This document shows, in pieces, positions 1 through 62,858 of a stretch of 64,000 bases of DNA (positions are counted from its first letter, which is position 1; each line of letters starts with the position of its first letter). The position numbers and the translations under genes are program-made. Under the pieces are notes generated by a model. That model was given only the letters and a program-made list of their open reading frames with translations. It did not search any database and had not been told where the DNA came from. Origin of the DNA: Leucoraja ocellata (lineage: Eukaryota); NCBI GenBank assembly GCA_036785375.1, contig JAWMAR010000406.1:1054001-1118000 (forward strand). The letters run 5' to 3'.

Positions 1-1191
1 GGGAGGACGTAACAACAATGCTTCCAGAGGATATTCTTGTGGTATGGCCTAGTGAGGATATATGTGTAAAACAGAATCAAGAATGGCATGATCACTTTGC
101 TGAGGCTGCGTTAGACACCCCCCACACTTTAGGCAGTGGGAATTAGAGAGAAGATGTGTCAGAAGCTCGCATAAGCTATAGTATTAGTGGGAGATTTGAA
201 ATGTATTTATATTGACTGGATGTAATCCATAGTGCAACGGGCTTGAACAGGGTGGAATTTGTATTGTCCCTACTACAGAGGGCACAACACTGGTGGAAAG
301 AAAATGACTTCAGCTTTGAGCTCCTGAGAGAAGAATATTTTAAGTGACGAATGAGTGCAACCAGTTAAGATTCAATGCTGCCAAAAAAATCTAACATTAC
401 ACTGAGTCTCACTGTAAAACAAAACTTGCTTAAAAACATTTAACAATGTGAATGACCAATGACATACCACAAATAAACAATATGCACTGGTCATAAACAC
501 ATTGTCGTATCACAGTTTTGTCTCAATCTCATTTCCACTTCTTGAATTTTTATTTTAATGATTTATTGAATACATAGAAAATCCAAAATCTTACCAGTTT
601 CTTTAGAGATAAAACATTTTTAAAGCTATGTTGCTGATTAACTTATGTTTGATTATAACTTGCACACATGCCATGTCCTGTGCAGAATTTACAAGACTAC
701 ACATATTTGTATGCAGTTTCTAGACATCCACTTCCTCCATAAAGCACGTTTATCATGGTTCTACTCTACTGTGAAACAGAAAGCATGTTCGTCAACTCTA
801 CGGACAGCAGAATCAATGGCCTTTGATGAAGTCTCGTTGACATGAGGTCCAGCAGTTGCCAAAGCGTGCACTTCTTGAAACTGATGCAATGTTTTTCCAT
901 ATGTGGCAGCCTTAGAGGAAATAGTCCTGAGCACTGGAAACAGACTGAGAGGCATGCAACTCAGAAAGAGGATCACAAGATCACTTGTGTGGGAAAAGGA
1001 GGACAGGAATGAAATGAGTGTGTGCTTCTGAATGGAATTGCATCGCTGACAATCCAAAGTAAATATTTTGCCCATATGTGCATTGGAGAACGTCATATGA
1101 CTTTCAGGCTTCAAGGCACTAAAATCTAAATGGTACAAAGTGACAGCAGAGAGGAAACAAAATAAAGTAACAGGCAGGTAACAGTAAACGC

Positions 1192-1290
1192 CAGTCTGAA
1201 GAAGGGTCTCAACCCGAAATGTTACCCATTCCTTCTATCCAGAAATGCTGCCTGTCCCGCTGGGATTCTTCAGCATTTTGTGTCTATCTT
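1192..1290 (+). repeat. Penelope-type terminal repeat family copy
   Basis: cagtctgaagaagggtctcaacccgaaatgttacccattcc...cagcattttgtgtcta; further copies at ~5330, 7310, 26125, 28490, 48185, 50478, 50945, 56270. Confidence 0.75.
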
Positions 1291-1949
1291 CAAAGTAACA
1301 GGAAAGTTTGGCAGACAGTGGCAGAAAACTACATTTCCCAATACATCACAATTATCCAAAATAGCAGGATCCTGGCAAATTCAATGTTTGCTTTAAGTAG
1401 GATTTGTGGATTTCTCGTGCATTGGAAATGTAATTATAACTTGATCCATGTATTTTGTTTACAGCACAGAGTTGATGTATTCTATACACAAGACAAAAGT
1501 CTGTGACAATACCAAAGTCAATTCAATTCTTATAACAAGGAGATCTTGCACTTTGCAGATTTTATTTGCGATTTTGTCATTTTCCACAAAACTTGAAAAC
1601 AAGCCCATAGCTGATCATTCTGGAATTCTCTCCTTCAATTCTCCACTTCAAAAGAATATTTTTTAAATCACCACTTGCCAACTTAACTTAAATCAAAAAT
1701 AAACTACAAATTTCAAATAATCAAAAAGTCACAGCATTCCTGCACGTCGAGTGCTTACGACTACAATCATGATTATATATCGTTCCTTTGAATCCTAAGA
1801 ATGCTTTTTGTTGAAGGGGAACGTCTTATGGGTCAGAGCCATAGCAAACAAAGACCCTTAAGTTAGCATGATGTCGTTTAACTAACTAAAAACTTTCCAC
1901 ATATTGCCGGTAGCAAACAAGGCTATTAACAAAGCTGCATACAAGTGGA

Positions 1950-4942: not shown

Positions 4943-7900
4943 TCGGTACCGTATGGGTGTACGGTTAGCAGCTTACACGCTCATTGTCTATTCCCTTCGG
5001 AGTCCTTCTATTTATGCAGCCAAATGGTTAAGAGTTAAGCACAATTCATCACTGTACTTATTTAGCAATGGGTGTAGCTTAAGAATATTTTTTCTTTGTG
5101 CAAGGTAATGCATGGTAAGAGGGGAGAAGAGCAAGATCCCCTGGCGGGAGATTGTGGATGCTGTGGATGGAGAGAAGCAGAGAGCCTAGGCATATTTGTA
5201 TTTCAGGTACAGCTATTTGCAATGAGATGGACAGATGGGAACGGCGGCTTGTCTCACACCTCGATGCTCAGAGAAGTCCTGGCGCTGAGCCAAACCAATG
5301 ACTGGAACGTAGGCAATCAACTAACTCAAACAACACAAAGTGCTGGAGTAACTCAGCAGAGGTAAGGCAGCATCTCTGGAAAACATGGAAAGGTGACGTT
5401 TCGGCTCAATACTTTTCTAATTAAACAAAGCATCAACCTTCAACGGGGCTAAATTTGTTCATCAGCTTTGGGGAAAACAAACATTTGTGCAACTCCTGCA
5501 AACTATATCTGAACTTCCTCCTCTTTCACCCTCACCAACCCTCTCTCCTCATTGCCTCTCACATCTCTTTTTCCTCAAATGCCTCCCTCATCTCTAAGCC
5601 CTTACGTTGACCTTCATTTCCCTATGGAGGACTTGCTTGTGCCAGAGGTGCTTTGGGCCACTTCATTTATTGCAACAAAAATATTTTTATTCTCTTAACA
5701 CAAACAACGAACGTGTTAATTTGCAACTGCAGTTATCTGACGGCCCCGATTATTTTTGTAATGAGAGCGATTATACATAAAGTATCCTAAAAGCCAGATC
5801 AAGGTTTTAAATTTAAATGGTAACAGAGTGCAATCATAAACCAAAAATCATTTTGCTTATTCAGGTAATTCAGCTGGAACAACATAATTCTGTTGATTAG
5901 ATCCTTACATTCACAATGATGTAGCAGCACAATTAATTTCTGAAATTAACACACAACACAATTAATGTACTGAAGGCATTGATCCTTCTGATGTATTTAG
6001 GATTCCAGCATCTGCAGTTGCTCATATCTCTGCCTTGATTCTGTGGGTTGGGTCACTGTAGTTGTTATGGAACCTCAAGGACTGTTGGTATCTTCCACCT
6101 TACTATGATCTAGTTGTTACCCAGTATATGATTGGTGTTTTCCTGTGCATGTAGATTCATAGGAATATATTTTCAAGTAGCTGCTGTTCAACAACGGAGG
6201 TCCTTGTAACCCAATCCAAATTTTCCATCATCATTCCACACATGGTCTTATTTCACGCAGAGGCCAATGAGAAACAATCCATGGTTTCTGACATTTCCTC
6301 TCCTGAACCCCCACAGTTCTAACATTACACAGTCTGGGGAAAGGTCCAAGGACAAATTGGGGATATCTCTGGTTTGTAGTAATCATGAAAGTTGCCTCCA
6401 AGACTTTAGGAACAATTTTATATCCTTTGCGGAGGAAAGCAGAATGTATCCAGTGTGATATTGTGTACAAATGAAACATTGAGGGGAAAGAATGTGTGTG
6501 ATTTTTTTTGGAGCCAAATCCATAAAGTATCCTGTGTTTCTCAGGCATTCAACTTGGAACCTATCCATTAGAAACACAGGACACCAGACCCCCAAGCTAG
6601 TTATTACTTAATAAGTAGTTTAACCAGGTCTAAAAATGTGATAATAAAGTCCTGAACCCACATTTCCCTTGTGTTTCAAATAAGTCCATCTTTGCACAGT
6701 AGCATAATGGTGTACATTGTAAAATAGGGGCACAGCGCATCAAGCTCAAGGTCTATTTAGATGAATAATGTAAAGAACCCAGTAAGATTTAAAAACGATT
6801 TCCTGTGCTGAGACAAATCATGTGTCAGAAATATGTGAACAGTAGTTATTCGAGCCAAAAGGATTGTTTCATTGAATGATTGTATGAAAGAATGTCAAAT
6901 TCCACTGATGCAACAGAGCAATAAAGTGTGAATAACTAACCTTCTGCCAAGAAGATTTAACAAAATGATGAACACTTCTGGCGTTCAACCAAACACATGC
7001 CGTCTGTGCTAATAAGACTCACGTTATATACTGCAAAGATTCTGCCTCGGACACTCGGATACCCATTACCCTCCACATCAAGATACAAAGAGCTACTTCT
7101 CCATAAAGATTTGCTGGAATCTACTTAAATCAAGATCAGATTGCACTGTGCTTTAGCGTTGCACTTTCATCTCTGGAATCTGGGTTTAAATTCAGACCAA
7201 GCTGATGGGATGTATGGGGTTTTTTTGTCTGGGGTTCCAAGGGATCAATATACGGATACTTTTTCCCCAGGGGCATTGACCTGCCCACAACGGAGCAGAA
7301 TCATCAGTAGAAACAAGGAACAGCAGATGCTGGTTTACCAAGGAAAGACTCAAAATGCTGGAGTAACTCAGCGGGTCAGGCAGCATCCTGAAGAACATGG
7401 ATGGGTGATGTTTCGAGTTGGGACCTTTCTTCAAACTTCAGATTTTGCGTCTTTCCTGAGCAGAATTATCAGTTTCACAAAGAAGGCATAAGGAGAGGAC
7501 TGGAATTATTTCAGATTGTTCAAAAGGGAGTGCTATCTTTAGGCTGGGATATAAATACAGTATCTAACTGGGCTCAATTTAAATTGGAAAATATGCCAAC
7601 ATTGTGTTACAAGGAATGGAGAACTGTAATGTTTGCAAGCACAGGTATCCCCACAAGCATTCACAGATGTAAGCAACAATATTGGTGAATCCAAAAAGTA
7701 AAAAAAAAAAAAAAAATTTAATTCTAACTTCTTCCTCGCCCTTCGCAATAGTCTATTCCAATATGGGTACAATTTAGATGAACCTTCGATGAAATTAAGC
7801 CATGTCATGACTATGAATGTGTTTCGTGTTAAGAGTGCACTATCATGTTCATTTTTCATTGGAGTAAAGTACTTGTATTGAAATTTCCATCCCATTCTTT

Positions 7901-24450: not shown

Positions 24451-25684
24451 GCTGAAAATTAATCCTGTGTTTTTGTGATCACCAGGCAAATTATCACAAT
24501 GGGTTTCCAACTCACCACTCTCCTATTTTCCACAAACTTCAGTCGTGTGTTTGGTTCTTAACGTCCTCTCACCCTTGGTCCCTCTCATTTACACTGGCTC
24601 TGCATCTGCCAAAATCTCACATAAATACTGAATGCTAACATTCATACTGCAGGGTGGTGGGAAATAGCAGAATACACAGAAGGCTGTATCCATCATTTAT
24701 TGTGCCCAGTGTTTCACTGTGCGGGCAGATACGAGTTGGTCTTGACATCCTGTTCGGCACAGAAATTGTGGGCTGAAGTGTCTGTTCCTGTGCTTACTGT
24801 TCGATACACACTAAATGCTGGTGTAACTCAACAGGACAGGCAGCATCTCTGGAGAGAAGGAATGGGTGACGTTTCGTTCTCTCCAGAGATGCTGCCAGTC
24901 CCGCTGAGTTACTCCAGCATTTTATGTCCATCTTAAATCAGCATCTGCAGTTCCTTCCTACACTCTACTGTTCTATGTTCTGTGTGCCTAAACTGATTGA
25001 TAGATTATACATGTCACATGATTGCAAATAAGAACATAGGAAATAAAGAGTGAAGTCTAATGTTGAATGGTATCGTCACTGACAAAAAAAAATCCATTAA
25101 AAAACCTAAGGAATTATTACATCGTTGTAATTTCAAATAAATACTAATTAAGTCATTTTCCTAACACTGCTTTACTATTAGGCTATTTCAATGTATTCAG
25201 CTTTCCAACCGCTTGTAAAACTGCTGTGTGTAGACACGACGTGAGTGTTTCCTTATATATTACCTCAAAAATAATTATCCCCAAATGAGAAAATTAATCC
25301 TTACAAAAAAAACATAATATCCATCTGTCTCCCTCTCCTCAGTAACTGCGATATGGCAATCACCAGTTTGTTTATTTTATCCAACCCCTTTCAAAAAGTG
25401 TTTAAAAATAAAGCTGTTATTTTATATTTCAGAAATCCTGATTTACTGGGGAATAAGCATCTGTTAAATAAACATGTATTTTTAATGCAAATGCAGTGTT
25501 CAATTTACAGAATTCATGCAACTGCTCCCTCATTCTTCCAGTGTAGTCATTTCATTACCTTTGTTTCATAGGTACATTACTTTGTGACATTTTAATCTGT
25601 TTGTTTGGTGGTAACAGAACAAGCTTAATGAGCTGACAAGCGACATTCATCTAAATATCCAAGGCCTGAAGGAATTTCCACTTT

Positions 25685-28880: not shown

Positions 28881-30384
28881 CTGTCAACGAAATTAGATAA
28901 TTTAGTACAATTCCAAGAAAGTGGCCGAGGATGTACATTACACTAAAAGATGTCCCAAAGTGCTCCAGGTCTAAAGAATTAACTTTGAAGTGCAATGACT
29001 GTTACGTGAGCAAGTTTGGAAGCCCGGATTTCAGTAACTAGAAGCAGAGTGGGCAAGGGGGGGACGGTCATGTGGCGTCTCTTACTTGTCACTATTCAGA
29101 GTCAAGAATTTAAGAGATTAGAGGGAGAAAATACGAAAACAAATGTAAGTTTAAATGCAAGTCAGACAAAAACAAATACAGAAGAACACTACATAATGAG
29201 AGTCAGAAGTACACATTCGATCTTTGCTAGTTCAGATTTAATGGTGTTAATCGTGCATCAAGATCCATCGGTACCCGTGAAGTACATATACCATTAATAT
29301 TTAGTTACTGTTGTGAATACGCATATAATCACTTCAAAAATGTGTCATCCACCAAATTTAAGAAACCACATACTATCTGCTTCACAATAATGTCTCCATT
29401 GGATTTGCAGGAAGAATCCTGTTAAGGAAATCAGCAGAATTTTATTGTAGTTACAATACCATTTTGTCACAATTTAATGCAAACATCCTCTAAAATATAG
29501 CTAGATTTACAACTTCCAATGCCCACCTTGGCTGATGCAATTGCAGTTAAATCATAAAGGATGTAATTTTGCCACTGTGACAAAAAGATACGTCTTGACT
29601 GGGTTTAGTTATGTTTGGCAGAAATTGACGCTGCTGTATTTAAAATCAATCATCAAGTATTTGAAAAACGGTTGAAAAGTTTCTGGAGGAATCAGGTTAA
29701 CTTTGAACGACTACAGCATGATTTGCTCAGTATAATCCATAACAGGCAATTACTGAGTAAAGTTAGAAGTTATAAAAAATTCAAACATGCAACATCAATA
29801 GGTGAAATGTTATTTAAACAGGTGGACCCAACCTCCATGTTGAATACTGTAGTGTTAAATTACCAGAACAAAGACAAACTGATAAAAAGCATTGAGAGTC
29901 TAAGAAGGAGGAGGACTATATATTTATACAGGTTACCTGAAGGACATAGTATGCAATGTAAACATACAACCTATTATTGCTATACTATTCACTTGTGCAT
30001 CATCTTATAAACTGACTGGATATCTTCTCCTTCGAAATGGAGTTCCTCATACATTGCATAACAAGATGATGTGGAGCAACAAGTATTTCAGTGTCTTTTG
30101 CCCATGACCAAGATTTGGTATCAACTTTTTTAACCAAGATCTCAGGAAAAAGCTACACACTAACAGAGGCAACGGGCCTTGGGATTCACAAATGACAGTG
30201 CGATGTAAAATATAAGAACAAGAATAACCGATGTTAATGACATTTAAACTGACTGAAGAATAACATATTTTTATCTAGGAAAACAAACATTGATATTTTC
30301 CCTTTGTCCCCTTCAAACTTCTACCACATCTCAAAATTGGTGGGCGGTATCGTGCACCTCATTGTTGAATCACCTTCGAGCCCA

Positions 30385-30555
30385 TCTTCCTTATCTCTGC
30401 GTCTCCCTCTCCCCTGACTCTCAGTCTGAAGAAGAGTCCCGACCCGAAACGTCACCCACTCCTTCTATCCAGACATGCTGCCAGTCCTGCTGAGTTACTG
30501 CAGCATTTTGTGTCTATCTTCAGTAAACCAGCATCTGCAGTACCTTCCTACACAT
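30385..30555 (+). repeat. Penelope-type terminal repeat with hammerhead-like core
   Basis: tcagtCTGAAGAagagtcccgacccGAAACGTCacc. Confidence 0.75.
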
Positions 30556-31473
30556 GTTCCTAAACCTACAGGACGTGGCTCACATTGTGTCCACCAACAC
30601 AGACGCGAACACAGACAGATTAACACAGTGAAACAATGGTGCAAACATTTATTTTCCTTTATCATTGAACATTTAGGTGAGTTGTCTATAAACAAATTCA
30701 CTTGACATCTTTATTTTAAGTTAACTGTATGTTTAATATCCAAAATGACTCAAAAGCACCAATACAACTAGAACTACATATCCTATCCTGTGCAACCAAA
30801 CACTGACTTCCCCTATCCAGATGCTATTGACGATGAAACCCTCATGCAAGCTATCTCAAATTTCTCCAAAACATCACCAACAACACATCTTCTTATTCCT
30901 AAGTGTCATAACATACTAAACCTTTGCTTTTCTGCCTCTCCTTCCTTGCTTCCAAAATTAATGAAGGATGCTTCAGTTATTATACCAATGCATTCTAACC
31001 CCAGCAATTCTCTATTTACAAATTAACTTGAATCTCAAATGTATTTATTTTGACTAAGCCATCAGTCCCCCTCCCCAACAGTCCAATCAACTTCTTAGAC
31101 ATATTTCTTAGGTGATAAGTGAAAGTTGATGTTGTGGACATAAAATTAAACCATTTAATTTCAGAATACGTTTTATGATTTTTCAAAAAATCTTTCTGGC
31201 AATGTGATTAAAAGACTTTCACTTATTATTTATGGATACATGCAAATACTAGCTTGGGAATCTTGCTTTTAACAAAGCGTTGTGCTACTGTTCCAATAAC
31301 AAATGTGTTTACTCACATTGTCGCTCATCGGTTTTTAAGTTTTGAATACATTGGGGAAAACAACTCCAATCAGGGCAATCCTCAATATAAATAATTTTGC
31401 TGAGGTAGTGCATTATTTGCAAATTAGTAACTTTAACCTTGCTTCCTTTCATTCGCCAATGTTGCACACAACA

Positions 31474-35526: not shown

Positions 35527-36719
35527 CATGGCTACTGAGGCTCCACACAATACTGTGTGTCAGAGAAAACATCTTGCAAATGAAGAACGCAGCAACACTA
35601 CACTCTGAACCATCTGTTTATGTGTCCTTGAACTGGCGAGAGTGTGGGTAATGGCTACTGTCGGATGTGACTACCAACCGAATCAGTTTGGCAATGTTAT
35701 AACCAGATCTTAATGCCCCCATGGTATTGCATGCTAACAACATTTGTTGCTTTATTTGCATTATGTTTATTTATTTTCCCCCACTTAAATTTCATACATG
35801 CGAGTTTTATTCCTTGCCCCTGAGTTTTGGGCAATGATTTGCAAAATCCATAAGGGTAATCCTCCGTCACCTAATAGCCATAATGTGGGGGTTGGCTTTA
35901 ACAACTTTTAATAGGAGCTAATTATTAAAATAACAATAAGCAATAAAGTGTATGGGATTAAAAACCTCAACTCTGGTCAGAACTTTAGATAGAACAAACC
36001 AGCTCTTGTCTCGCCCTGGTGAAAGATCAATGTTTTATCCATGTTCCAAAAAGGAAACCAGATGTCTGTGTTGCTCCCGTGGTTTTATCAACTATAGACT
36101 AGATGTGGTCTGGAATCACTGTGGAACATGCCACAACAGAGCTCTACACAATAATTTGCAGCATACTTGCAACTTACCACATTTTCCACATTAAACCCCA
36201 AATTACACCGCAAAGCTTTTCTGCAAAAGTTGGAAACGCATTACTTTTAAATTGTTGTGAAATGCGACATCTTTTGCACAATGCTTCAGAAGCGGCTTTA
36301 GATGCTCCGTTAATTGGAAGATTGGGAAAAAGACTAAAATGAGAAATACTCTTACATGCATGAATTATGCAAACTTCACTCATTCCTTTTATCCAGGGAG
36401 TTAAGTTCAACTCACAGCTGGTTTCAAATTGCAATTATCATTATGGAATTAAGACAGATGTTGGCAAACTGAAATTTGAAGAGTTGGAGACAGATTATTT
36501 CTTCTAAAGCATATAAAAGTTAGACTCACATTTATAACTGGTTCACAAATATGCTTTAGGGAAAAATCTCAGCTGTCTTTACCCAGCTATGACTCCAGGC
36601 TGACAGCAATGTGACTGATTCTGTACTGCGCTCCAAAATAGTCTAGCGGACTCAGTTCAGGATCAAGCATCAGGATAAGACAAACATAAACTGCTGTTGG
36701 CAAAGCAACAATTCGGTGA

Positions 36720-36935
36720 AAGATACAAAATGCTGGAGCAAGTCAGCGGTTCAGGCAGCATCTCTGCATAGAAAGAACGGGTGGTGTTTTGGGTTGAGAA
36801 GGTCTGAAGAAGGGTTTCGACCCGAAACATCACCCATTCCTTCTATCCAGAGATGCTGCCTGTCCCACTGAATTACTCCAGCATTTGGTGTCTATCATCG
36901 GTGTAAACCGGCATCTGAAGTTCCTTCCTACACAA
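36720..36935. repeat. Fold-back (inverted) pair of the Penelope-type repeat
   Basis: acaaaatgctggag...aggcagcatctctg pairs with cagagatgctgcctg...ctccagcattt; similar pairs at 12909-13224 and 24803-24932. Confidence 0.85.
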
Positions 36936-44758: not shown

Positions 44759-45140
44759 ATGCCGGACAAAATTTTCCTCTGGCCTTTCCTGTTAATTTTT
44801 CTGCTCTGCAACTTCCCTCCATGCTACAGCCGGGCTCAGAAAGCACCCCGGAGAAGGGGAACGGCAGGAGGATTGAACCTTTTGAAGCTTGCCACCTGTT
44901 GCGAAGAGGTGAAGGAGCTGAAGATTCAGGTGGCCAACCTGACAGGCTTTGTCGCTGAGCTTAACAGGAAGCAAGAGACCGACTGGATAAATGTCGTCAT
45001 GCAGATGATGGAAGTCGAAAACAACTGTCGTCAGATTGAATCTCGCATTACAGAAGCTGAAGGAAAATACTCGGAAGTGAACAATAGGATAGACATTATT
45101 CAGCTTCAGGCAGCTCAAACTGTTACAGAGACATCAGCAG
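44759..45140 (+). CDS. ANGPTL7: ANGPTL7 coding exon 1 (signal peptide + coiled coil)
   Basis: ATG, hydrophobic signal peptide, then CCEEVKELKIQVANL...IQLQAAQTVTETSA as in ANGPTL7; donor cag|gtaagt; 382 bp, phase 1. Confidence 0.96.
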
Positions 45141-46955
45141 GTAAGTGATGGAAATCGGGAGAAGGAGATGTTATTAAACACATGTATTCTCACGAGGTTC
45201 AATACTCCCAAGCATGACCCTGTAAATTTAAGTTTTAAAAGGTGACGAAAATAATCGGTAACTGCCCTTATTAGTCAAATTTGAATTACTTAGTCAACTT
45301 AATTATTTTATATTGACTTTAACCAAGTAAAATGTTCCAAGACACTTAAACGGATCGTTAACAACATTTGACAAATGGAAGCCACATGTTAAATTAATAA
45401 GGCACAGCTGTATAAAATGGTTTGGGAATTTACCATTTTCTTAAATATGAACCTATTCAAAATCATAAATAATTCAAAGGCATTCAAGGATGTCAACTAT
45501 AGTAAAGGAACAATCAATCGGGCATCTGCATGGAACTGAAAATAATAATCACCCTTCGCCAAATCATTTCAATGCTTCCAAACGCACTCACCCCAACTAA
45601 GTTTGACAAAGGCTCCACGAGCCTTTTGAAGTTAATACGGTTAAAATAACGTTTTCCTACATTTGTCAGATTCCATTACTCTACAAATAGCTAACTAAAC
45701 GGAGTGGGTTACCATACAAAACAAAATCATACTTGATGTGAATTATTTTATGGGCAATAGATTCAACTGTGATATTAATTGAAATGAAACTTCTCAAGAT
45801 AAATGAACAAATGATATATTATGTTGTTCAATATGCCTTTTGAGAAATAATTATATTCAAACCATACTTTATTTCAGCTCAACCCCATGTGCACTAATCT
45901 GAACAGAAGCAACACATTCAAATATATCAAACAATGTTACCCTAAATGGCCTGACATGTGAAGTCATCACATTGATTTTATTTCTGACCAACTGCAGTAT
46001 GTACTTGCAATTAAAAGGGAAGACTGATTAAGAAGGTTATTTATTTTCCATCTATAAGGCTAGACAGTGTCTTAACAGAAGAAAGCCTTTTCAAAAGAAA
46101 TTGCAAATAAAGCCTGTGTCTTTTTCTATCATATGTTAACAAGTGATTGAACTTAAATCCAAGTTTAATAGCAGACTGCAAGCCCCAAGCCCTTATGTTG
46201 AACAATATTATCATTAATGTGAGCTAGCATTATCTGGGTAATAATCACAGTTGTTATTCTATTCATCCACCGGGCACGCTGTGAAGCAAAAAAAAAAAAA
46301 AAAAATCCCAAAGCATTTAGCTTTGCTGAGCTATTGTGAAGTAGCAATTACTGGTAATGTTAAAACTATGTGGCAACAGAAGTGCCCCCTGCACAAGAAT
46401 TACAGGTTTAATAGAGCTCATACTTGCACCCTGTAGCTATAGATGATGGATTACAGGTTTAACAGATTAGATGCATTTCACATAAGTAACTTTTAGTTGG
46501 AACTCAGGAAAGGAATACTCAGAAGCCATGGGTTAGAATTCTGCCCACTGTCATATTTAAAGAAAAACGTGTTAAAGTAACAGTAACTACTGCAGATTTT
46601 ATTTTGTTCGGTTCCACTGAAGGCAAATCATCAAAGTGACAGAGGAGAAAGTTGTACCCTAGTGTCACATGGAATTTCCTCAGACAGATGTCTAATCAGA
46701 CAAGAAACTTCAGGGGTAATAAATTCTCACAAGCAAGCCACTTGGCTTCTCAGTCACAATCTGAAAACAATGCACAAATCTTTTTATCTTTGCGTTTTAT
46801 CTTCAATGAACCGGCTTCAAGAGTTGGGAGCTCAGAGAGCAATTTTCTTAGTATTTTTAGGATCCGTTTGAGAAAGCAATTTTAATTATCTTCTCCCTTT
46901 TACAGTCAACACCAGGAGTCTGCAACTTCTGCAACTATGCTGCACCCTGCACTGA

Positions 46956-47656
46956 TACAGTGCCCTCAATAACGTTTGGGACTAAGACCCATCATTTGAT
47001 TTATTTGCCTCTGTACTGCACAATTTGAGATTTGTAATTGAAAACAAACACATGTGGTCAAAGTGCACGTTGTCAGATTTTAATAAAGGCCATTTTTACA
47101 CATTTTGGTTTCACCATATAGAAATTACAGCAGTTTTCAGGAGACCATAATGTTTGGGACACAGTAATGTCATGTAAATGAAAGTAGTCATGTTTAATAT
47201 TTTTATGCACATCCTTTGCATGCAATGACAGCTTGAAGTCTGCGATTCATAGACATCACCAGTTGCTGGGTGTCTTCTCTGGTGAAGCTCTGCCAGGCCT
47301 GTATTACAGCCATCGTTAGCTTATGCTTGTTTTGGGGGCTAGTCCTCTTCAGTTTTCTCTTCAGCATATAAAAGGCATGCTAAAATGGGTTCAGATTGGG
47401 TGATTGATTTGGCCACTCAATAATTGACCATTTTTTAGCTTTGAAAAACTCCTTTGTTGCTTTAGCAGTATGTTTGGGTTCATTGTCTTGCTGTATAATG
47501 AACCACCGGCCAATGAGTTTTGAGGCATTCGTTTGAACTTGATGGGATGTGTCCATACAAATCAGAATTCATTATGCTACTAATATGAGCAGTTGTATCA
47601 TCAATGAAGATAAGTGAGCCAGTACCTTCAGCAGCCATACATGCCCAGGCCATAAT
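46956..47656 (-). mobile_element. Tc1 (DD34E) right end with dead transposase C-terminus, in ANGPTL7 intron 1
   Basis: TA|CAGTGCC terminus; minus strand reads [40 protein letters not shown], with 34 residues between D and the stop that replaces the catalytic E. Confidence 0.92.
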
Positions 47657-50208
47657 TTGTCTGTGTTAACAAATTCAAAACAGCTCATGGTGGTTGCTCC
47701 ACAGCAGAGGGTTTGATCAATGTCCTGGGCAGCATCAATTCTCACCCAATAACAATAAAATGGTCATTAATCTGACTGTGGACTGTTTGCAAATCTCTGC
47801 TGTTTCCCTAAATGAATATTGAATGCCAAAGTGACCAATTGTCACAGTTGAATCTATCCCTCCAATTATTTCATCACTCCAGCACATAGTGCTATTTTTG
47901 TTGCCAAAATGACTAAGCCACTTCCTTTTTCTTCAATGATGAAAGTATTTGTATACATTTGCTCTACAGAATCTGGTTCCTAAGCAGCAGTGTCCTGCCA
48001 TAATTTTGGCAGCTCGATTTTATCCGGTTGTTCTAAATATTACAGAAATGACATATCACCATTAACCATGCTTCACCGATCTCAGTTTGGTTGAATTTAG
48101 AATTAAGTTCACCGGTTTTACAAAATACACAATCAACCTGTTCAGAGTAGAAAATGTGAATGCCATTAACCATAACAGCTGTTTCAGATCAGAAGAGTCC
48201 CGACCCGAAACGTCACGTATCCACGTTCTCCAGAGATGCTGACTGACCCGCTGAGTTACTCCAGCATTGTGCGTCTATCTTTGGTATAAACTAGCGTCTG
48301 TAGTTCCTTTTTATGACAGTTGTTTTAGCCCTTGGCATGCCTCTGATTGAGACAAACTTGATTTGTTTGACTCTGTTGCTGCTCTACTGAACCCTCGCCT
48401 GATAAAAACTCAAATCAACAGGTAATTCAGACATCCTCATTAAATCAAAGCAAAAACCGCACAAGGCAAACACTAAATATCATGCTTCCTGAAACACAGA
48501 AGCAGCAAACTAGAGTTGATACTGCATTTTCTACATGCTTCACTAGTTTACAGAGTGTACCTCGCAGTTATTGAGCAGGCAGAAGAATGTCAGTTATGTA
48601 CACACAGGTTCACACAAGGAGCACAATTATCTCGTCTCATGGATGGCCCCTCAGCTCCATCCAACCTAAACCCACATGAACATAAAAGAAACAAAAAGCA
48701 AAGTATAGACACTGGGAAACTGAAATAAAACAGAAAAAGCTGGAAGTACCTTGTAAATCATTCAACATCTCTAGGAAAAAAATGTTAATCATTCAAATTG
48801 ATTTTTTTTTTAAATCTGAATAATTCCGTTGAAAGGTCAGAACCTTTTGATTACTATTCAGGAACTAAAATTTAGATTTTGATTTTTAAATAATTATCGC
48901 ATGCATAAGACTTAGCTCAACACTGCTTGCTCAAAGTTAAATTTAAAATAGGCCATGTATCTTTATTCACTTACATCTAAAGCTATTAGTAAACAGGCAT
49001 GGCAGTAGCATCATTAAAAGTGCAGACATATTATTAGATGGGACTTTTGGATTTGTAAAGATAAAATAATTAATTTGACACTGGCCCCAAAATCACCAAT
49101 GTTATTTTGATATATTCTGCTGAAAGCACATTCCCATGAGTGTGGAAGGAAAGTCAAATTTAACTAAGAACAAAAAAAAAAAAAAAAAAAATCAGGAATA
49201 ACAGGTATCTTAACTGAAAGGTGGAATCCAAAATGCAACCCTTTAATTTCAGGATAATAATACTAACTTATCGGAAAGAAAATATGGATAGGTGCATGAC
49301 AACAAAAAAAATGCAGGCTTCTCCCATGCCTGAAGAATGGGGTGGATTCCTAAAGAATATTTTGTCATTCAAAAATGTATACAGCAGTAATCCTTTAACT
49401 TCCGCCAAGGAATACCAATAGCTTTTGATGCCAAAGTCATCAGAAGCTCGTCAATCTCCTCCCAGTAAATATGCTGTAAATCAAAAGCAAACCATGCTCT
49501 CAGTCTGAGAAGCTGAAAGATATGCATCAAAATGTTATTGGCAAATGGAATAGTGCAGATGGTCAAGAAAATGCCACCACCAACAACACATTTTAAGAGA
49601 TATGTTTCAGAGACTCTTTAACATTCAGACAATCAAACGGGCTGTTAAATGCAGAGATTCTCATGGATCTGTGCTCGAAAGATAGTCTCCAAATCCGTTC
49701 CCTCTGTTTTGTTGCAGACAATGATGCCTTCATAAGACAACAAATTAAATTAAAACAAATCCCTTATTTGTCGAGATTTGTAAAGTGAGTGTCTTCCGAC
49801 TGGAGGAGACGTGTATGTGGAAAATTACAAAGTGACGGACATACATACCACATCTGTGGGTATTCATCGATCCCCACAGCTAATAAATTAATTGGAGACA
49901 TTTTTAAATTTGCACAGTTCTTGAATTGCTTTCGTATTGGTGTATTTAGTCTGGCTTCATAGACAGTGGCAGAGCATGCAACAAAAGAAGGCTTCTTGCG
50001 TGAGTGGGCTCCATAAATAAACAAGAGAGTTTTTACTGCTCCAACTTGGAAAAGTCCATATGTGTCAGGAACGAAACTAAAACACTGTTCATAAAAGGTC
50101 ACTTTATTCAATGTTGCTCAAATGTGACTGCAATCTTGAAATGCTTCAATTTAAATCTCAGGGATTCTAAACCACTGAAGTAATCCCTAACCTTCTGTTT
50201 GTTTGCAG

Positions 50209-50309
50209 ATGCTACGTACGACTGCAATGCACTGTACCAGAAAAATTACCGAATTTCTGGCGTATACAAACTGCCGGCAGACGAGTTCCTGGGAACTCCA
50301 GAACTTGAG
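50209..50309 (+). CDS. ANGPTL7: ANGPTL7 exon 2 (start of fibrinogen-like domain)
   Basis: (D)ATYDCNALYQKNYRISGVYKLPADEFLGTPELE; tttgcag| and |gtgacc; 101 bp. Confidence 0.96.
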
Positions 50310-51342
50310 GTGACCCTTTCCAAAATATATTTACTTCATATTCTTGTATGCCCTCTTTTGAACATGTTTGTGGCTGTTGAGTTTTAAATCAAGTTGTACT
50401 TGTACTGACTGTCTCTTGCAGGGCAATCATTATTCATCAGGTTTCATTTTAATAGTGCGAATATTGCTCGTGCATAAGAAAGGTCTCGACCCGAAACGTC
50501 ACCCATTCCTTCTCTCCAGAGATGCTGCCTGTCCTCGATGAGTTACTCCAGCTTTTTGTGTCTATCTAAAATTTGACAACTTACTTCATTTTACTGTAAT
50601 CTATTTAACCTGAGCAAACATTTCCTATGATTTTATGAAGTTTATCTTTAGAACATTAACCATATCTTGCTTTTTGCCCAGGATCAGTGTTCTGAATCCA
50701 ATCAGCAGTGCTGCGGTAGATACCCAGCGCTGGTAAAAGCTGCTTCTTCAGTCAGATTTTTCTTCCACATATCAGCGCCCTCCTAAATTAGAAGAGTTGC
50801 CTGAATCGGTAGTCAAACCTATACTAAATAGTTAAACTTGTTGGAAAGCAGAAAACATGTTAATTCGTCTCTCTACCATCGTCTGGGTAACTAGGTTTAA
50901 CTCCACATTCGGCATAAGGTACCAAAGTGAACTAAAAAAAATGGAGAAGGGTCCCAACCCAAATCATCAGCTATCCATGTTCTCCAGAGATGCTGCCTGC
51001 CCCGCTGACTTTGTGTCAGTTTGTGTAAACCAGCATCTGCAGTTCCTTGTTTCTGAAAATTTACCATGGCTGCTATTAAACTTTTCTAATTAATTTGTTC
51101 TGACAAATTGAAAATTATGAAAACAAAACTATATTTCTAATGTATATATCTAATTCATAACATTCAATGGAATGCGCCGAATAGAAAATCCATATCAAAA
51201 TTCTCCATGTGAAATCAAAATAATATTATTGGGCCACTCAAGCTTGGACTGAGCCGCTGAATATTCTCAATTTCTTAAAATAGTGAAACAATTCCTGTTC
51301 TATTGAAGTATGCTGCCTATTTTTACTCAAATCTTGTTATAG

Positions 51343-51537
51343 GTGTTCTGTGACATGGAATCTGGAGGTGGTGGCTGGACCGTTATACAACGTCGTAAGG
51401 CTGGCCTAACCTCTTTTAATCGTGACTGGAAACAGTACAAACGAGGATTTGGGAACATCCGTGGGGACTTCTGGTTGGGAAATGACCATATTTTTCGATT
51501 GACCAGACAACCAAGCATACTCAGGATAGACATGGAG
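51343..51537 (+). CDS. ANGPTL7: ANGPTL7 exon 3
   Basis: [19 protein letters not shown]...[31 protein letters not shown], fibrinogen C-terminal motifs; ttatag| and |gtaact; 195 bp. Confidence 0.97.
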
Positions 51538-51669
51538 GTAACTCATCCGAAATTTCAATTCATTATCCCGAATGTTATTCCAAATTTGCTTCTTTGTGCA
51601 TGAAACGTTCAACTTGTTAGTAACAAGAATCTACAACTTAAATATGTATCCAAAAACAAATTAAATTAA

Positions 51670-51822
51670 TGTGCTGGTATCAGCCTGTATAACAGCAAAT
51701 AAACTGTGAAATTACTTCACCTGCATAAATACAGGACTGGGAAGGACAGATTCTCTATGCAGAATAAGCTGCTTTTCTATTAAATAAATAGCGATAAATT
51801 ATTAATTGGAAACTATAATGAG
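51670..51822 (+). pseudogene. Decayed partial duplicate of ANGPTL7 intron 3 end + exon 4 5' half (pseudo-exon)
   Basis: acag|GACTGGGAAGGACAG identical to the real exon 4 start; homology continues to TTAATTGGAAACTATAATG and ~65 nt into the upstream intron; stop TAA at 51765-51767. Confidence 0.9.
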
Positions 51823-52293
51823 TGACACAGTGGTGCAGCGGTAGAGTTGCTGCCTTACAGTGCCAGAGACCCAGATTGGATTCTGCTATTGGCTTATCTT
51901 TGTGGAGATAGAAACATAGAAAATAGGTGTAGGAGTAGGCCAATCGGTCCTTCGAGTCAGCACCACCATTCAATATGATCATGGCTGATCATCCAAAATT
52001 GGTAACCCGTGCTGGCTTTTCCCCCCATATCCCTTGATTCCCTTAGCCCGAAGAGTTAAATCCAACTCGCTTGAAAACTAGATTGTACATTCTCCCTGTG
52101 ACCGCGTGGGATTTCTCCGTGTGCTCTGGTTTCCTCTCACATTCCAAACAGATGCAGGTTTGTAGATTGATTGGTTCCTGTAAATTGCACCTATTGTATA
52201 GGATGCCAATGTGGGATGACATAGAACCAGTGTCCGGGCGGTCGGTGAGCCCAAGGGCATGTTTCCACACTGTATCTCCAAACTAAACTAAAC
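51821..52293 (+). mobile_element. SINE in ANGPTL7 intron 3 with a nested antisense CR1 3' tail (~51908-52076)
   Basis: Head gtgacacagtggtgcagcggtagagttgctgcc; insert atagaaacatagaaaataggtgtaggagtaggcc...; SINE body resumes and ends aactaaactaaac. Confidence 0.85.
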
Positions 52294-52421
52294 AAGTATC
52301 TTTAAACCCAAGTATCTCTAAATGTGAATTTATATAATCAATAAAATTCTCTGGTGTACTGGTGTATCAGTTTGTATAAACTGCAAATACATTGTCAACT
52401 GGCTTAATCTGTAAATTACAG

Positions 52422-52620
52422 GACTGGGAAGGACAGGCTCGGTATGCAGAGTACAGCTATTTTTCGATAAGCAACGAAGTAAACAGCTATAAGTTACTAA
52501 TTGGAAATTACAATGGGACAGCTGGACGGGACTCCCTCAGGTATCACAACAACACAGCTTTCAGCACAAAGGACAAAGACAATGACAAATGCGTAGACGA
52601 CTGCGTACAATTCCGCAAAG
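52422..52620 (+). CDS. ANGPTL7: ANGPTL7 exon 4
   Basis: DWEGQARYAEYSYFSISNEVNSYKLLIGNYNGTAGRDSLRYHNNTAFSTKDKDNDKCVDDCVQFRK(G); ttacag| and |gtacgt; 199 bp. Confidence 0.97.
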
Positions 52621-52855
52621 GTACGTGCTAATCTGTAAGCAACTCGTCATTTGGCACTGAAATGGGTCCTGGCACTAATATCTATTTAATTACACAAGGC
52701 AAACAAAAGGGTATTCAACATATGCTGCCAATTCATGAAATGTGACCCGAGAATAAAAACCGTATTCTCACATAATTAAAAAAAAATCGAATTGAAATAT
52801 ATGACAGAATTTATATCTTTCACAATATAATAACTTGGAATTCCTTTAACTGCAG

Positions 52856-53025
52856 GAGGTTATTGGTACAACTGCTGCACAGATTCTAATCTGAATGGAG
52901 TTTACTATCGCCAAGGGTACCATACCCACAACTCTGATGGCATTACATGGTACGGCTGGCATGGTTCGAGTTATTCACTCAAGTATGTGGAAATGAAGAT
53001 TCGCCCACAAAACTTCAAGCCTTAA
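52856..53025 (+). CDS. ANGPTL7: ANGPTL7 exon 5 (terminal coding exon)
   Basis: (G)GYWYNCCTDSNLNGVYYRQGYHTHNSDGITWYGWHGSSYSLKYVEMKIRPQNFKP*; ctgcag| acceptor; the five exons total 1047 nt = 348 aa + stop. Confidence 0.97.
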
Positions 53026-55519: not shown

Positions 55520-55806
55520 AAAAAAATGCACTAGCTTTGCGTTTTCACCCAGCAAACAACTAACAATGACCCATTTCCTTTATCATCATCACTTTTCTGC
55601 ATATCTTTTATTCATTGTTCTTTATCGCTATACATCATCGTCTATATCTCTCGTTTCCTTTATCCCAAACCAGTCTGAAGAAGGGTCTCAACCCAAAACG
55701 TCACCCATTCCTTCTCTCCAGAGAGGCTGTTGTCCCCGCTGAGTTACTGCAGCGTTTTGCATCTATCTTTGGTTTAAACCAGCATCCTGCACTTCCTTCC
55801 TACACA
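55520..55806 (+). repeat. Longer Penelope-type terminal repeat copy
   Basis: Same core at 55671-55706; homologous to the reverse complement of 58888-59140. Confidence 0.75.
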
Positions 55807-55954
55807 AAAAAATAATAAATCTGGCTAATGACTGCCCAATCAATGTAATCTTCATCAAGCATGAGACAGGAAAAGTGCGATATTTTCTTGAAGACACGAG
55901 GAACTACTTAACTCTTGAACAAAGCACAAAGTGCTGGAGCAAGTTTGTGAGTAA

Positions 55955-56246: not shown

Positions 56247-58887
56247 TCAGTCAACACACAGTATGTGGAGGGAATGGACAGCTGATGTTTCGGGTCAGGA
56301 CCTTTCTTCAGACTGCAGGTTCTGAGATTTGGAGCAGGAAAATGGTAGGGAAGGTTTTGATATTATGTACTTTGAGGAGATGAAGGCAGGTATAAAGATT
56401 TTAACTGAGAGCATGGTAATATCAAATCAAACTTTAATTAAGCAAAAGTCAGACCCCAGTGATGGCAAGTTTTAGTTTAAAGACCAGTGGCCTGCAGCAC
56501 AACAAAAAAGTCCAAGAGAGACAAGGGGTCTTGAGAAAGAATCAGATAAACACAAAATGCTGAAGTAACTCAGGGGGAAAGAATAAGTTAGATCATGAGG
56601 TCATTTAAAAAAATGGGACGACTGGGATAGGTATAAGAAGATAATGTTACAATGTGTTGGAAGTTTCAAGAGCATGATGTCACTCACAATTTATAGCATG
56701 AGGTGAAGCTGACTTCTCTCCTTCAAGGGAATTATTAATTCAAATTCCAAGTAGAAGAACTAAAAGCAGCAAGCAAGTTTAAGCAGCAACTCCTTCTGTA
56801 AATAAATGGCCTGAAAAGTTTAGGCCATTTTAGGCTAATTTCATGTAACTTCAAGTAAACATCGGTATTCTTGAAATTTTGTCATAGTCATATCAATCAA
56901 CTTGCTATCTTGCTCCCAAGCAGCATGAAGACATTTTTCAAAGTCCATCTTCAGAGTTTCATTGACCGTTATACTGAACAGTCCCACAAAGAAGCTAATT
57001 TATTTCTCATTATCTCATTATCCATTTCTGACAGAGCCATCGCCTAACACATTATCTTTTTTTTTGTGAGGATACTGATAATCTCACCATGTATTTTCAG
57101 CAATTGTTATCTGGGTAGAAAGTCATATAATTTCACAACATAATGCACATTCAATGCAAGTCTCTTGGCAACATCTGTTTTAGCGGTGTGAGCACAGGTC
57201 TGAAAATAAATCACTGTTTTTTTTAAAAATAGAGAAACTTATACATCTATAGTAACACATAAAACAAAATCTGTTGAAATTCTTATTCATCATTGCATGC
57301 ATTCTCCCTTTGTTAAGTAATGGAACGAGAAACAGAAAACTTTCCTTGCCAAGAAATGAAAGAGATACTGGGAATGATGATGATGGTCTACTTATAATGC
57401 ATTGCAATTTATTACACTCAACTTTTTTGGCAAGGCTTTAAATTAAGAATGGCATCATGAAACTGTTGAAAATTAACTTGACGGAGAGTAAAATATCCAC
57501 TCTGCCTAGGTGTGGGGTATAGTCCACAACAGAAATGACAAAGAACAATTTAGATGTACTATTGCCCTTTATTATATTACTATATATTGTCATCCTTGGA
57601 GAATTTTCATAATACATATATCCTCAATAAGCCATTGAGACAATCGACACTGCCACTGCTTGGAGAATCCTCGCCCCCATTTGTTTTACTGTAACATGCT
57701 CACTACCAACTACCTAGATTCTTCCACCAGTCACCTCACAGTAACAGAATAACATGACAACCAGCACCTACTTGGGATGTGTCGATGATGTGTCCCCCAG
57801 AATAGGGGGACGTAATGTGATCACGGGAAAACATGCAAATTCTACACAGAAAGCACCACGAACTGAGAGGCACATGCACAACTCTGGTACCACAGTGTCA
57901 GTCTATAATATAGACTACTACAAGGAAATCTAAATCCACCACATACCAAGAAAAAGGGCAAGTTTATCTTTTGGAGTCTTAACATTAGTTTAGCCCACTG
58001 TATTGTCTTGTATTGGATGAATGTTTATTGTCGGGGTATTTCAGGTTTGAAATAAGAGTTAAAAAAACAGAATTTAAAAGTGGTTCAAAAAAGTTGTTTT
58101 AAGTTACAAAGTTATTTTTAAAAGAAATAAAAACATATTTGATAATTGCCAATAAATATAATTGTATGTGGCTAATGTAGATTATTATGCTGAGTTCCAA
58201 ATGAGATTAACTGAACAATTTTCATGCAGTGAACTACCAATTCGCAATAAAGTATACCAGCCAAATTTCAAATACCAGTCAACCAGCTAACACAGTGGAA
58301 GTCTTTAATCATGAAGGTTTCAAAGGGCATTCAAAGGAAATAGAGTGCATGACTGAAAGCAAATTTTGATTACTTATGGATTCAAATTATTTCCAAAATA
58401 AACAAAATGAGAACCTGCAGCATGTTACACAGGTTGCTTGAAAGGTGAGTCAAGTGTGTGACTGAAACATACTTCAACTTTAATGCATTAGGAGTGTTGC
58501 AATGCTGTTGGTGCTTGAGGGCTTCAGAACTCTGGCTAAATTAATAATATATTCTGCACGTTTGATTCTGATATAAACATTAAATCCCAATAATATGAAG
58601 CAGCATATAAAATTCAAAAGCTGCCATGCAGTTTTTGGTCACAATTGTATACACAAACTATACTTGTGGAAACTAGAATTGAATGAAAGCTTTGTCAAGA
58701 CGTCTTAAGGGAGGGGAAACAGGGCTAGTTATGGTGGCCATACACCGGTTCAGATCACAGGCCACCCTCCCAAGCCAATTATATGCCCCCCCTCCCAAGC
58801 TCGGGTATTCTTGATAAGGAAACACAGTGTGCTCACTGGTAAACATTCTGGGACCAGAGGCAGTATAACTGAGATGGCAAGGACAAT

Positions 58888-59140
58888 TTGTAGGAAGGAA
58901 CTGCAGATGCTGGTTTACACCGAAGATAGGCACAAAATGTGAGAGTAACTCAGCGGGACAGGCAACATCATTGGAGAGAAGGAATGGCTGACGTTTCAGG
59001 TCGAGACCCTTCTTCAGACTGAAAGTCATGGGAAAGGGAGTTGAGAGATATGGAAAGGTAAGGTGTGAAAATGACAGATCAAAGCAGATGATTATAAGGC
59101 TATGTAGAATGGTTCATTGTTAGGGGAAGGTGACAAATTA
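58888..59140 (-). repeat. Longer Penelope-type terminal repeat copy
   Basis: tgtaggaaggaactgcagatgctgg...gacgtttcaggtcgagacccttcttcagactga. Confidence 0.78.
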
Positions 59141-62404: not shown

Positions 62405-62858
62405 ACAATAATAACATTAAGCTAAACTAAATCTTAAAGATAGAATAGAAACATAGAAAATAGATGCAGGAGTAGGCCATTCGGCATTTCAAGCCAGCGC
62501 CGCCATTCAATATGATCATGGTATATCATCCAAAATCAGTACCCCGTTCTCCCCATATCCCTTGATTCCATTAGCCCAAAGAGCTATCCCACCTCCAAGG
62601 AATGTGAGCATTCAATGTGCATTTTCACCAAAGGAATCAAGGCATTTGGAGATGGGCAAGGAAAACAGTGCTGTAAAAGTTCTGCCATAATCATACTGTC
62701 AATAATAAAACAATGATAAAAATAACTAAACTAAACCTTAAAGATATCCCACTTCTGAGCGATGTGAGCATTCAATGAGCATTTTCACAAAAGGAATCAA
62801 GGCATTTGGATAAAGGCAAGGAAAACAGTGTTGTAAAAGATCTGCCATAATCTTACTG
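62405..62858. repeat. Local tandem duplication of ~150 bp; first copy interrupted by a CR1 tail (~62442-62585)
   Basis: gtgagcattcaatg-gcattttcac-aaaggaatcaaggcatttgga...ctgccataatc-tactg occurs twice. Confidence 0.88.

What the first reader, a model, noticed from the sequence alone, without database searches (positions are those of the whole stretch)
51670..51822. Hidden decayed duplicate of ANGPTL7 exon 4 with an intact acceptor and in-frame stop (candidate poison or truncating exon)
Seen: 687 nt upstream of real exon 4 is a copy beginning acag|GAC TGG GAA GGA CAG (19 identical nt across the junction), with ~65 nt of homologous upstream intron. It reads DWEGQILYAE*, because loss of one C turns TAC AGC into TAA. 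Many other differences are silent (GAG/GAA, TCG/TCT, ATA/ATT, AAC/AAT, AAG/AAA, CTA/TTA, AAT/AAC, TAC/TAT), and the copy ends where a SINE begins. Inference: exon 3 ends in phase 0, so this acceptor could compete with the true one. That would give an NMD target or a secreted coiled-coil isoform lacking most of the fibrinogen domain. The silent bias suggests an old duplication and possibly a former alternative exon, although selection on the live copy alone could also cause it.
Basis: partly seen in the sequence, partly recalled or inferred. Interest (0 to 1): 0.72.

Follow-up and report, generated by a model that had tools for sequence, protein, structure and literature searches.

The report
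SINE insertion footprint duplicates exon start
In skates, a dead copy of the start of one ANGPTL7 exon and an intact copy flank an old jumping element, which likely landed inside the exon and duplicated about 210 bases around itself so that the gene survived; assembled RNA skips the dead copy, so it is likely a harmless scar rather than a regulatory switch.

Summary
The copy is real (75% identical, 2 matches in the genome), but it is probably not a former or poison exon. It is the left arm of a ~200-220 nt direct repeat flanking a full-length SINE (51820-52294). The left arm stops at the SINE's first base. The right arm starts at its tail and holds the acceptor plus intact exon 4. Best reading: a long target-site duplication (TSD) from a SINE that inserted ~93 nt into exon 4 on the skate stem; the right arm rebuilt the exon and the SINE became intronic. 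Support: 3 of 334 other full-length copies have unique 47-146 nt repeats at both ends (null 0 of 668), and arm divergence is about twice SINE divergence. All 3 RNA contig sets that held the gene join exon 3 to the true exon; rare use is not excluded. The copy has 8 replacement or nonsense changes and a frameshift, as a neutral copy would. Silent changes are in unexplained excess (11 vs about 5-6). The scan noted short-TSD acceptor duplications on other DNA before. New here: the TSD length and the exon-deep rescue.

The parts
51343..51537 (+). ANGPTL7 exon 3; donor GT at 51538, phase 0
   Evidence: tblastn of skate ANGPTL7; RNA contigs; 348-aa frame
51621..51734 (+). Left repeat arm, intronic part (likely the original intron-3 tail), with the unused decoy acceptor AG at 51733-34. 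51670-51734 is firm; 51621-51669 is weaker.
51735..51819 (+). Left repeat arm, exon part: decayed copy of codons 1-31 of exon 4; 1-nt deletion makes TAA at 51765-67; a further 7-nt deletion lies near 51776 in the window and organism A only
51820..52294 (+). Full-length ~308-nt SINE (Pol III/tRNA-like head recalled, CTAAA-repeat tail), split by a nested insert; HE1/V-SINE-like (name recalled, not tested)
   Evidence: alignment to the majority of neighbouring copies from base 1 to the tail
51909..52081 (-). Later nested 3' fragment of another dispersed repeat with a (CTATGTTT)n-type tail (CR1-like, name recalled)
   Evidence: 81% match to window 62445-62586; reads of other SINE copies skip it
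52295..52421 (+). Right repeat arm, intronic part, starting at the SINE tail; holds the acceptor in use (AG 52420-21)
52422..52620 (+). Live exon 4 (52422-52514 belongs to the right arm); donor GT at 52621
   Evidence: 100% identity to three skate proteins; RNA joints
44759..53025 (+). Host gene ANGPTL7 (exons 44759-45140, 50209-50309, 51343-51537, 52422-52620, 52856-53025; 348 aa), lying between MTOR domains encoded on the opposite strand

Best explanation
The decayed exon piece is one of two direct-repeat arms that flank a full-length SINE, and it is likely the left half of an unusually long (~200-220 nt) target-site duplication made when the SINE inserted about 93 nt into ANGPTL7 exon 4. 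The right half would have recreated the intron tail, acceptor and whole exon, so the insertion became intronic. Inferred steps: target-primed reverse transcription with a first nick about 114 nt upstream of the acceptor and a second nick about 210 nt away inside exon 4; the true acceptor is preferred because only it has a good donor 199 nt downstream (exon definition); the upstream copy, unused, decayed neutrally. Any leak to it would meet a stop after 10 codons and likely be removed by NMD. Shown: the geometry, the family's other long flanking repeats, the matching ages, presence in 4 related organisms, and skipping in assembled RNA.
For: Geometry: the left arm ends at SINE base 1 (exon AAT|GGG vs SINE head GGG) and the right arm starts at the tail; both-end-anchored score 131, against 76 for the best other copy and 15 or less for the remaining 188. 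Family habit: 3 of 334 near-full-length copies in 1.84 Mb have unique 47-, ~100- and 146-nt repeats abutting both ends (a fourth, low-complexity, dropped); 0 of 668 mismatched pairs pass. Ages: arm K2P 0.27-0.30 over two branches vs SINE non-CpG 0.14-0.16 over one; the three other cases give ratios 1.6, 1.8 and 2.8, ours 2.2. Decay: 9 replacement or nonsense differences vs 8.7-12.7 expected (P(<=9) 0.15-0.64). These include Y23D (Y in 120 of 120 homologues), E19* (E in 119 of 120) and a frameshift in Y11 (120 of 120). Among organisms A-D the copy took 2 replacement changes, 1 silent change and a 7-nt deletion in 85 nt, against 7 changes in 197 intronic nt and 3 silent plus 1 conservative change in exon 3 (codons read). 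RNA: X13, X14 and X18 (organism B, 3 studies) each give one ~1.94-kb contig joining 51537 to 52422, depth 149, 37 and 149.5. Precedent: a 1228-bp TSD in 1 of 25 ZfL2-2 insertions (PMC2666801, passages); L1 TSDs over 100 bp in up to 10% of HeLa insertions (PMC5223499, passages).
Against: Silent differences are in excess: 11 vs 4.6-6.5 expected (P 0.003-0.042), which an older duplication would explain better. The first 15 exonic nt are identical (P 0.03-0.12, post hoc). The upstream ~50 nt of the arms align poorly (shuffle p=0.12; 8-nt test p=0.31). At ~210 nt this TSD is longer than the 3 others found (47-146 nt). The same geometry would follow from a SINE insertion that deleted the middle of an older duplication. 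No pre-insertion allele or outgroup DNA was seen. The decoy acceptor is no weaker by pyrimidine count (10 vs 9 of 16), and it lies only 197 nt from the exon-3 donor. Contigs drop rare forms.
Confidence: 0.72

Rival explanations
1. An older tandem duplication of exon 4, perhaps used for a time as an alternative exon, was later cut by the SINE, whose insertion deleted the copy's 3' half and donor. Replacement changes built up only after that.
For: It fits both counts: 8 copy-branch replacement changes match the SINE's age and 11 silent changes suggest about twice that. LINE insertions with target-site deletions are known (PMC2666801, passages; a 71-bp deletion in NF1, PMC3219598).
Against: It needs two rare events. 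The intronic arms are only 0.27-0.30 diverged, half of what the silent clock would need. No remnant of exon 3' half or donor is found. The SINE family makes long flanking repeats by itself. Codon 26 (Ile in other batoids, Leu in skates and in the copy) puts the copy on the skate stem (parsimony). None of the 19 chondrichthyan ANGPTL7 proteins printed shows a second exon-4 form.
Confidence: 0.15
2. The decoy acceptor is used in a regulated way and couples splicing to NMD (poison exon), or yields a 236-aa truncated protein.
For: AG, the TAA and 51724-51775 are unchanged in 4 of 4 organisms (about 2 changes expected, not significant). The 20-nt junction block is identical. The decoy is the first acceptor after the donor, at a short-intron distance.
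Against: 3 of 3 RNA contig sets join across it. Variation in and around the copy is intron-like. The best cryptic donor downstream scores 2.4 at 510 nt against 5.6 for the true exon-4 donor (rough recalled matrix). No stored protein (120, plus those) contains ILYAE. Human Arg177* and Trp188* products are not secreted (PMC9529959).
Confidence: 0.06
3. The duplication arose apart from the insertion. Either a plain tandem duplication had the SINE land later at its junction, or a template switch at the GGG microhomology joined a SINE-free allele to one with the SINE in intron 3.
For: Old local duplications without a spacer exist here (about a dozen of the 26 non-satellite hits). GGG is shared at the left junction.
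Against: SINE density (334 in 1.84 Mb) gives about 0.4% for a hit within 10 nt of a given junction, yet 4 SINEs (ours included) fill such gaps. The template-switch route needs a polymorphic stage and leaves nearly the same trace.
Confidence: 0.07

Closest known systems
Canine merle SINE-Cf in PMEL (PMC7349775, passages)
   Same: A SINE insertion whose TSD duplicates a splice acceptor, leaving two acceptors around the element.
   Different: The merle TSD is 15 bp at the intron/exon boundary, antisense, recent and splice-altering. Here it is ~210 nt, sense, ~93 nt inside the exon, ancient and fixed, with normal splicing in assembled RNA.
NF1 c.1642-1_1642insAluY with duplication of -11 to -1 (PMC3219598, passages and table)
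   Same: A sense SINE with a TSD that copies the acceptor AG.
   Different: The TSD is 11 bp (6-17 bp across that study) and causes exon skipping and disease. Here the long TSD also carries the branch-point region and the gene is intact.
Long TSDs of LINE insertions in cultured cells: ZfL2-2 1228 bp (PMC2666801); L1 over 100 bp (PMC5223499); passages
   Same: A single insertion with a distant second nick duplicates over 100 bp; PMC5223499 notes such TSDs could duplicate exons.
   Different: Those are de novo cell-culture events. This is a fixed germ-line case from a SINE, with three more in the same contig.
ATP2A1 intron born by intragenic tandem duplication (PMC3265369, abstract and Discussion)
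   Same: A local duplication supplies splice signals so that extra sequence is spliced out with the protein unchanged.
   Different: That case made a new intron from an AGGT in coding sequence with no retroelement. Here an existing intron was lengthened by moving its acceptor.
HE1 SINE of zebrafish and elasmobranchs (PMC2911107, passages)
   Same: A tRNA-derived SINE without a poly(A) tail in cartilaginous fish; known to be exonized in zebrafish.
   Different: The element here is ~308 nt against a 402-bp HE1 consensus; no sequence comparison was possible.

Membership tests
Target-site duplication of a non-LTR retroelement | Direct repeats abut both ends of the element | tested here: met
   Left arm ends at 51819, SINE base 1 is 51820; anchored score 131. 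The tail-side start is weaker: p=0.007 for the junction 12-mer, p=0.12 for the whole extension.
Target-site duplication of a non-LTR retroelement | Repeat is unique target sequence, single-copy before insertion | tested here: inconclusive
   Only 2 matches in the genome. All 4 organisms laid carry the insertion, so no empty allele was seen.
Target-site duplication of a non-LTR retroelement | Arms and element are the same age | tested here: met
   Intron arms 0.27-0.30 vs SINE 0.14-0.16. Silent sites disagree.
Target-site duplication of a non-LTR retroelement | The family produces TSDs of this kind | tested here: met
   3 of 334 copies with unique 47-146 nt repeats at both ends; null 0 of 668.
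Poison exon / AS-NMD | Premature stop over 50 nt upstream of a later exon junction | tested here: met
   TAA at 51765; 236-aa product; the exon 4/5 junction lies downstream.
Poison exon / AS-NMD | Splice site used in transcripts | tested here: inconclusive
   Not seen in 3 of 3 contig sets that join across it; contigs drop rare forms; the raw-read run had no ANGPTL7 exon reads.
Poison exon / AS-NMD | Nucleotide conservation above flanking intron | tested here: not met
   4 changes in 85 nt of copy vs 7 in 197 nt of intron across organisms A-D; small numbers.
Poison exon / AS-NMD | Isoform rises when NMD is blocked | not testable with these tools
   No such run was offered.
Tandem duplicated (mutually exclusive) exon | Whole exon with its own donor and open frame | tested here: not met
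   Only codons 1-31 of 66, no donor, frameshift and stops.
HE1 / V-SINE | Sequence match to the HE1 consensus or V domain | not testable with these tools
   No repeat library is held; Rfam gave nothing above chance. The name is recalled.

The most novel reading that the evidence does not exclude
A SINE landed deep inside a coding exon and rescued its own host gene with a ~210-nt target-site duplication that rebuilt branch region, acceptor and exon. About 1% of this elasmobranch SINE family's germ-line insertions carry such long TSDs, making it a general, overlooked source of partial exon copies and decoy acceptors in skate genomes, some of which may have become NMD switches.
Probability: 0.55. 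Interest if true: 0.5.

Novelty: new variant of a known kind. Interest (0 to 1): 0.37.

Why it matters
TSDs that copy a splice acceptor are known, but in the cases read they are 11-15 bp and harmful. Here the duplication is long enough that an insertion ~93 nt inside a coding exon became intronic with the protein unchanged, and it was fixed in skates. It is a natural germ-line case of the long TSDs seen in cell culture, and the ~1% family rate makes a genome-wide search feasible. It also warns that decayed exon-like copies beside retroelements can be insertion scars rather than lost alternative exons. It does not reveal a new function for ANGPTL7.

Tried and rejected
Assembly artefact or second gene copy: rejected (25% diverged arms; 2 matches at one locus; contigs of 4 runs span copy and SINE head; only X4 has 31 or more letters on the SINE side). 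Structured RNA: Rfam gave 2 chance-level hits (E 0.5-0.6). Run search: no holder on record as RNA; rows X13-X20 are 'RNA?' guesses, though the contigs laid are spliced. I laid 4 of the 11 RNA or RNA? rows and 4 of the 13 other rows. X22 (raw poly(A) reads, ~6% read) had no ANGPTL7 exon reads and is uninformative. Lack of contig cover over the copy is not counted by itself; only the joint across it is. First TSD screen of 29 copies found none; the larger screens did. A null hit of 76 came from a dispersed repeat (2 of 1200 null pairs at 30 or more, both repeats). Re-deriving a SINE subfamily majority did not lower the SINE's divergence. Adding AT-biased and CpG rates did not remove the silent excess. 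No truncated isoform among proteins fetched; weak evidence. Whole-contig self-BLAST timed out and was redone in chunks, which missed two known cases, so its counts are lower bounds. Paper searches found no report of this locus or of an exon-deep insertion rescued by a long TSD; the library lacks most subscription papers, and no supplements were read.

Full report
1. Observation. The duplicate is in the sequence as described. Window 51677-51820 aligns to 52364-52515 at 74.5%, E 2e-20, with acceptors 687 nt apart. The own genome (3.44 Gb) holds only these 2 matches. The copy reads DWEGQILYAE* (TAA at 51765-67) and all 8 silent pairs listed are right. The host gene is ANGPTL7: five exons, 348 aa, with exon 4 identical to the Leucoraja, Amblyraja and Rhinoraja proteins, so the organism is a skate (inference). 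MTOR domains lie on the minus strand on both sides of the window. Human ANGPTL7 lies in MTOR intron 28 (PMC9529959, passages).

2. Anatomy. Between the two copies lies a full-length SINE. Against the majority of 25 neighbouring copies it runs from 51820 to 52294, split by a later insert at about 51909-52081. The exon-like copy stops at the SINE's first base: the live exon reads AAT GGG and the SINE head begins GGG. The partner arm begins at the SINE tail: 10 of 12 letters match at that junction (shuffle p=0.007), although the upstream 50 nt alone are not significant (p=0.12). The layout is therefore: intron tail + acceptor + codons 1-31; SINE; intron tail + acceptor + whole exon 4. The arms are about 200-220 nt. 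The copy has no donor and no trace of the exon's 3' half.

3. Does this SINE family make long flanking repeats? In 1.84 Mb of the same contig, 334 near-full-length copies were tested; ours is split and not among them. Four had a repeat abutting both ends. One was low-complexity and was dropped; three were unique sequence of 47, about 100 and 146 nt. None of 668 mismatched flank pairs passed (on a 189-copy subset). A separate search for old unique local duplications gave 37 hits, 11 from one satellite. Among the other 26, the spacer is a SINE in 2 clear cases (ours included), likely a LINE 3' piece in 1, and SINE-like but unclear in 2. Chance landing at a junction is about 0.4% per duplication (computed from the SINE density). 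Long TSDs are known from cell culture: 1228 bp in 1 of 25 ZfL2-2 insertions (PMC2666801, passages), and over 100 bp in up to 10% of L1 insertions in HeLa cells, where the authors note that exons could be duplicated (PMC5223499, passages).

4. Age. The intronic arms differ by K2P 0.27-0.30. The SINE differs from the family majority by 0.14-0.16 outside CpG. The ratio of about 2 is what one event predicts; the three other cases give 1.6, 1.8 and 2.8. DNA contigs from 4 of 4 organisms laid (A-D) carry the copy and run into the SINE head. The 7-nt deletion is confined to the window and organism A. At codon 6 other batoids mostly have Thr (Narcine Ser), all three skates have Ala, and the copy keeps the ancestral first base. 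At codon 26 other batoids have Ile, while skates and the copy have Leu. By parsimony the event falls on the skate stem (inference from two sites).

5. Is the copy constrained? With the codons of organisms B-D there are 11 silent and 9 replacement or nonsense differences in 30 codons. Eight of the 9 fall on the copy branch by outgroup proteins. They hit columns invariant or nearly so in 120 homologues (Y23, E19), and the frameshift hits Y11. Simulations of a neutral copy and a constrained live exon, with rates scaled from local SINEs, expect 8.7-12.7 replacement differences (observed is normal) and 4.6-6.5 silent ones (11 is high, P 0.003-0.042). I cannot fully explain it. It is the best evidence for the rival in which an older duplicate was later cut by the SINE. 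Two of the 11 sites vary among close relatives, one back to the copy's base. Recent change in the copy is intron-like: 2 replacement, 1 silent and 1 deletion in 85 nt, against 7 changes in 197 intronic nt. Exon 3 took 3 silent and 1 conservative change in 195 nt (codons read). The AG and the TAA are unchanged in all four organisms, which is within chance.

6. Is the decoy used? Contigs of three runs (organism B, three studies; 'RNA' is the tool's guess, but the contigs are spliced) each give one ~1.94-kb sequence joining 51537 to 52422, at depth 149, 37 and 149.5. No 51537->51735 joint is among the 15 joints shown; 9 weaker ones were not shown. Contigs drop rare forms, and the one raw-read run had no ANGPTL7 reads, so low-level or NMD-hidden use remains open. 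The decoy is no weaker by pyrimidine count (10 vs 9 of 16). The likely reason it is skipped is exon definition: the true exon has a donor 199 nt on (score 5.6), while the best cryptic GT after the decoy scores 2.4 at 510 nt (rough recalled matrix). Use would give 236 aa with a stop far upstream of the last junction, so NMD is expected (established rule). Human Arg177* and Trp188* products are not secreted.

7. Mechanism. Most likely (0.72), one target-primed insertion with a distant second nick put the SINE about 93 nt into exon 4 and duplicated about 210 nt. The downstream arm restored acceptor and exon, and the upstream arm became an unused decoy. Geometry, family habit, ages, distribution and major splicing are shown. 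The nicking mechanism, the exon-definition choice and the absence of minor use are inferred. Rivals: an older duplicate cut by the SINE (0.15), duplication separate from insertion (0.07), a regulated poison acceptor (0.06).

8. Comparison and novelty. It works like the merle SINE (15-bp TSD holding the acceptor; PMC7349775, passages) and the NF1 AluY with an 11-bp acceptor duplication (PMC3219598, passages). In outcome it resembles the duplication-born ATP2A1 intron (PMC3265369, abstract and Discussion). It fails the test for a duplicated alternative exon and does not meet the conservation test for a poison exon. Earlier scan notes describe acceptor- or donor-duplicating insertions in other genomes (unchecked); none lies near this place. 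Ten paper searches found no account of this locus or of an exon-deep rescue by a long TSD, within a library that lacks most subscription papers. Verdict: a new variant of a known kind, tidy and testable, without evidence of function. Interest 0.37.

Noticed in passing
G000:C406:1846190-1846797 (L165): Full-length SINE flanked by a unique 146-nt direct repeat at both ends (71% identical): a second long TSD.
   Followed up: partly
G000:C406:1416558-1416997 (L042) and 744995-745385 (L102): Two more SINE copies with unique ~100-nt and 47-nt repeats abutting both ends. The first stretch also has a 99% match on contig C23, probably a duplicate haplotype in the assembly.
   Followed up: partly
G000:C406:469473-470500 (L134): 98-nt unique direct repeat (83%) around an 832-nt spacer that ends in the same CTATGTTT-type tail as the nested insert: likely a LINE fragment with a long TSD.
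   Followed up: partly
window 51770-51783: The 7-nt deletion in the copy lies between short CTATT direct repeats and is absent from organisms B-D: a recent slippage deletion and possible lineage marker.
   Followed up: partly
window 51347: The window encodes Phe where runs of B, C and D (and one contig of A) encode Tyr in ANGPTL7 exon 3: a polymorphism or lineage-specific change.
   Followed up: no
window 52303-52328: A short tandem repeat (CAAGTATCT unit, twice) just after the SINE tail, in the right arm only; it blurs the start of the repeat.
   Followed up: partly
window 62582-62858: Local direct repeat of 117 nt at 88% beside a fragment of the same repeat that is nested in the SINE.
   Followed up: no
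window 1191-1291, 7309-7437, 24800-24963, 30383-30561, 36714-36935, 50476-50567, 55641-55807, 58880-59055: An abundant ~130-nt dispersed repeat, often in inverted pairs. Earlier scan notes describe a ~135-nt ribozyme-headed mini-retroposon in this genome; whether this is the same family was not checked.
   Followed up: no
P0122, P0129: Heterodontus and Mobula birostris have annotated shorter ANGPTL7 isoforms X2 (328 and 326 aa) that lack ~20 aa upstream of exon 4, not within it.
   Followed up: no
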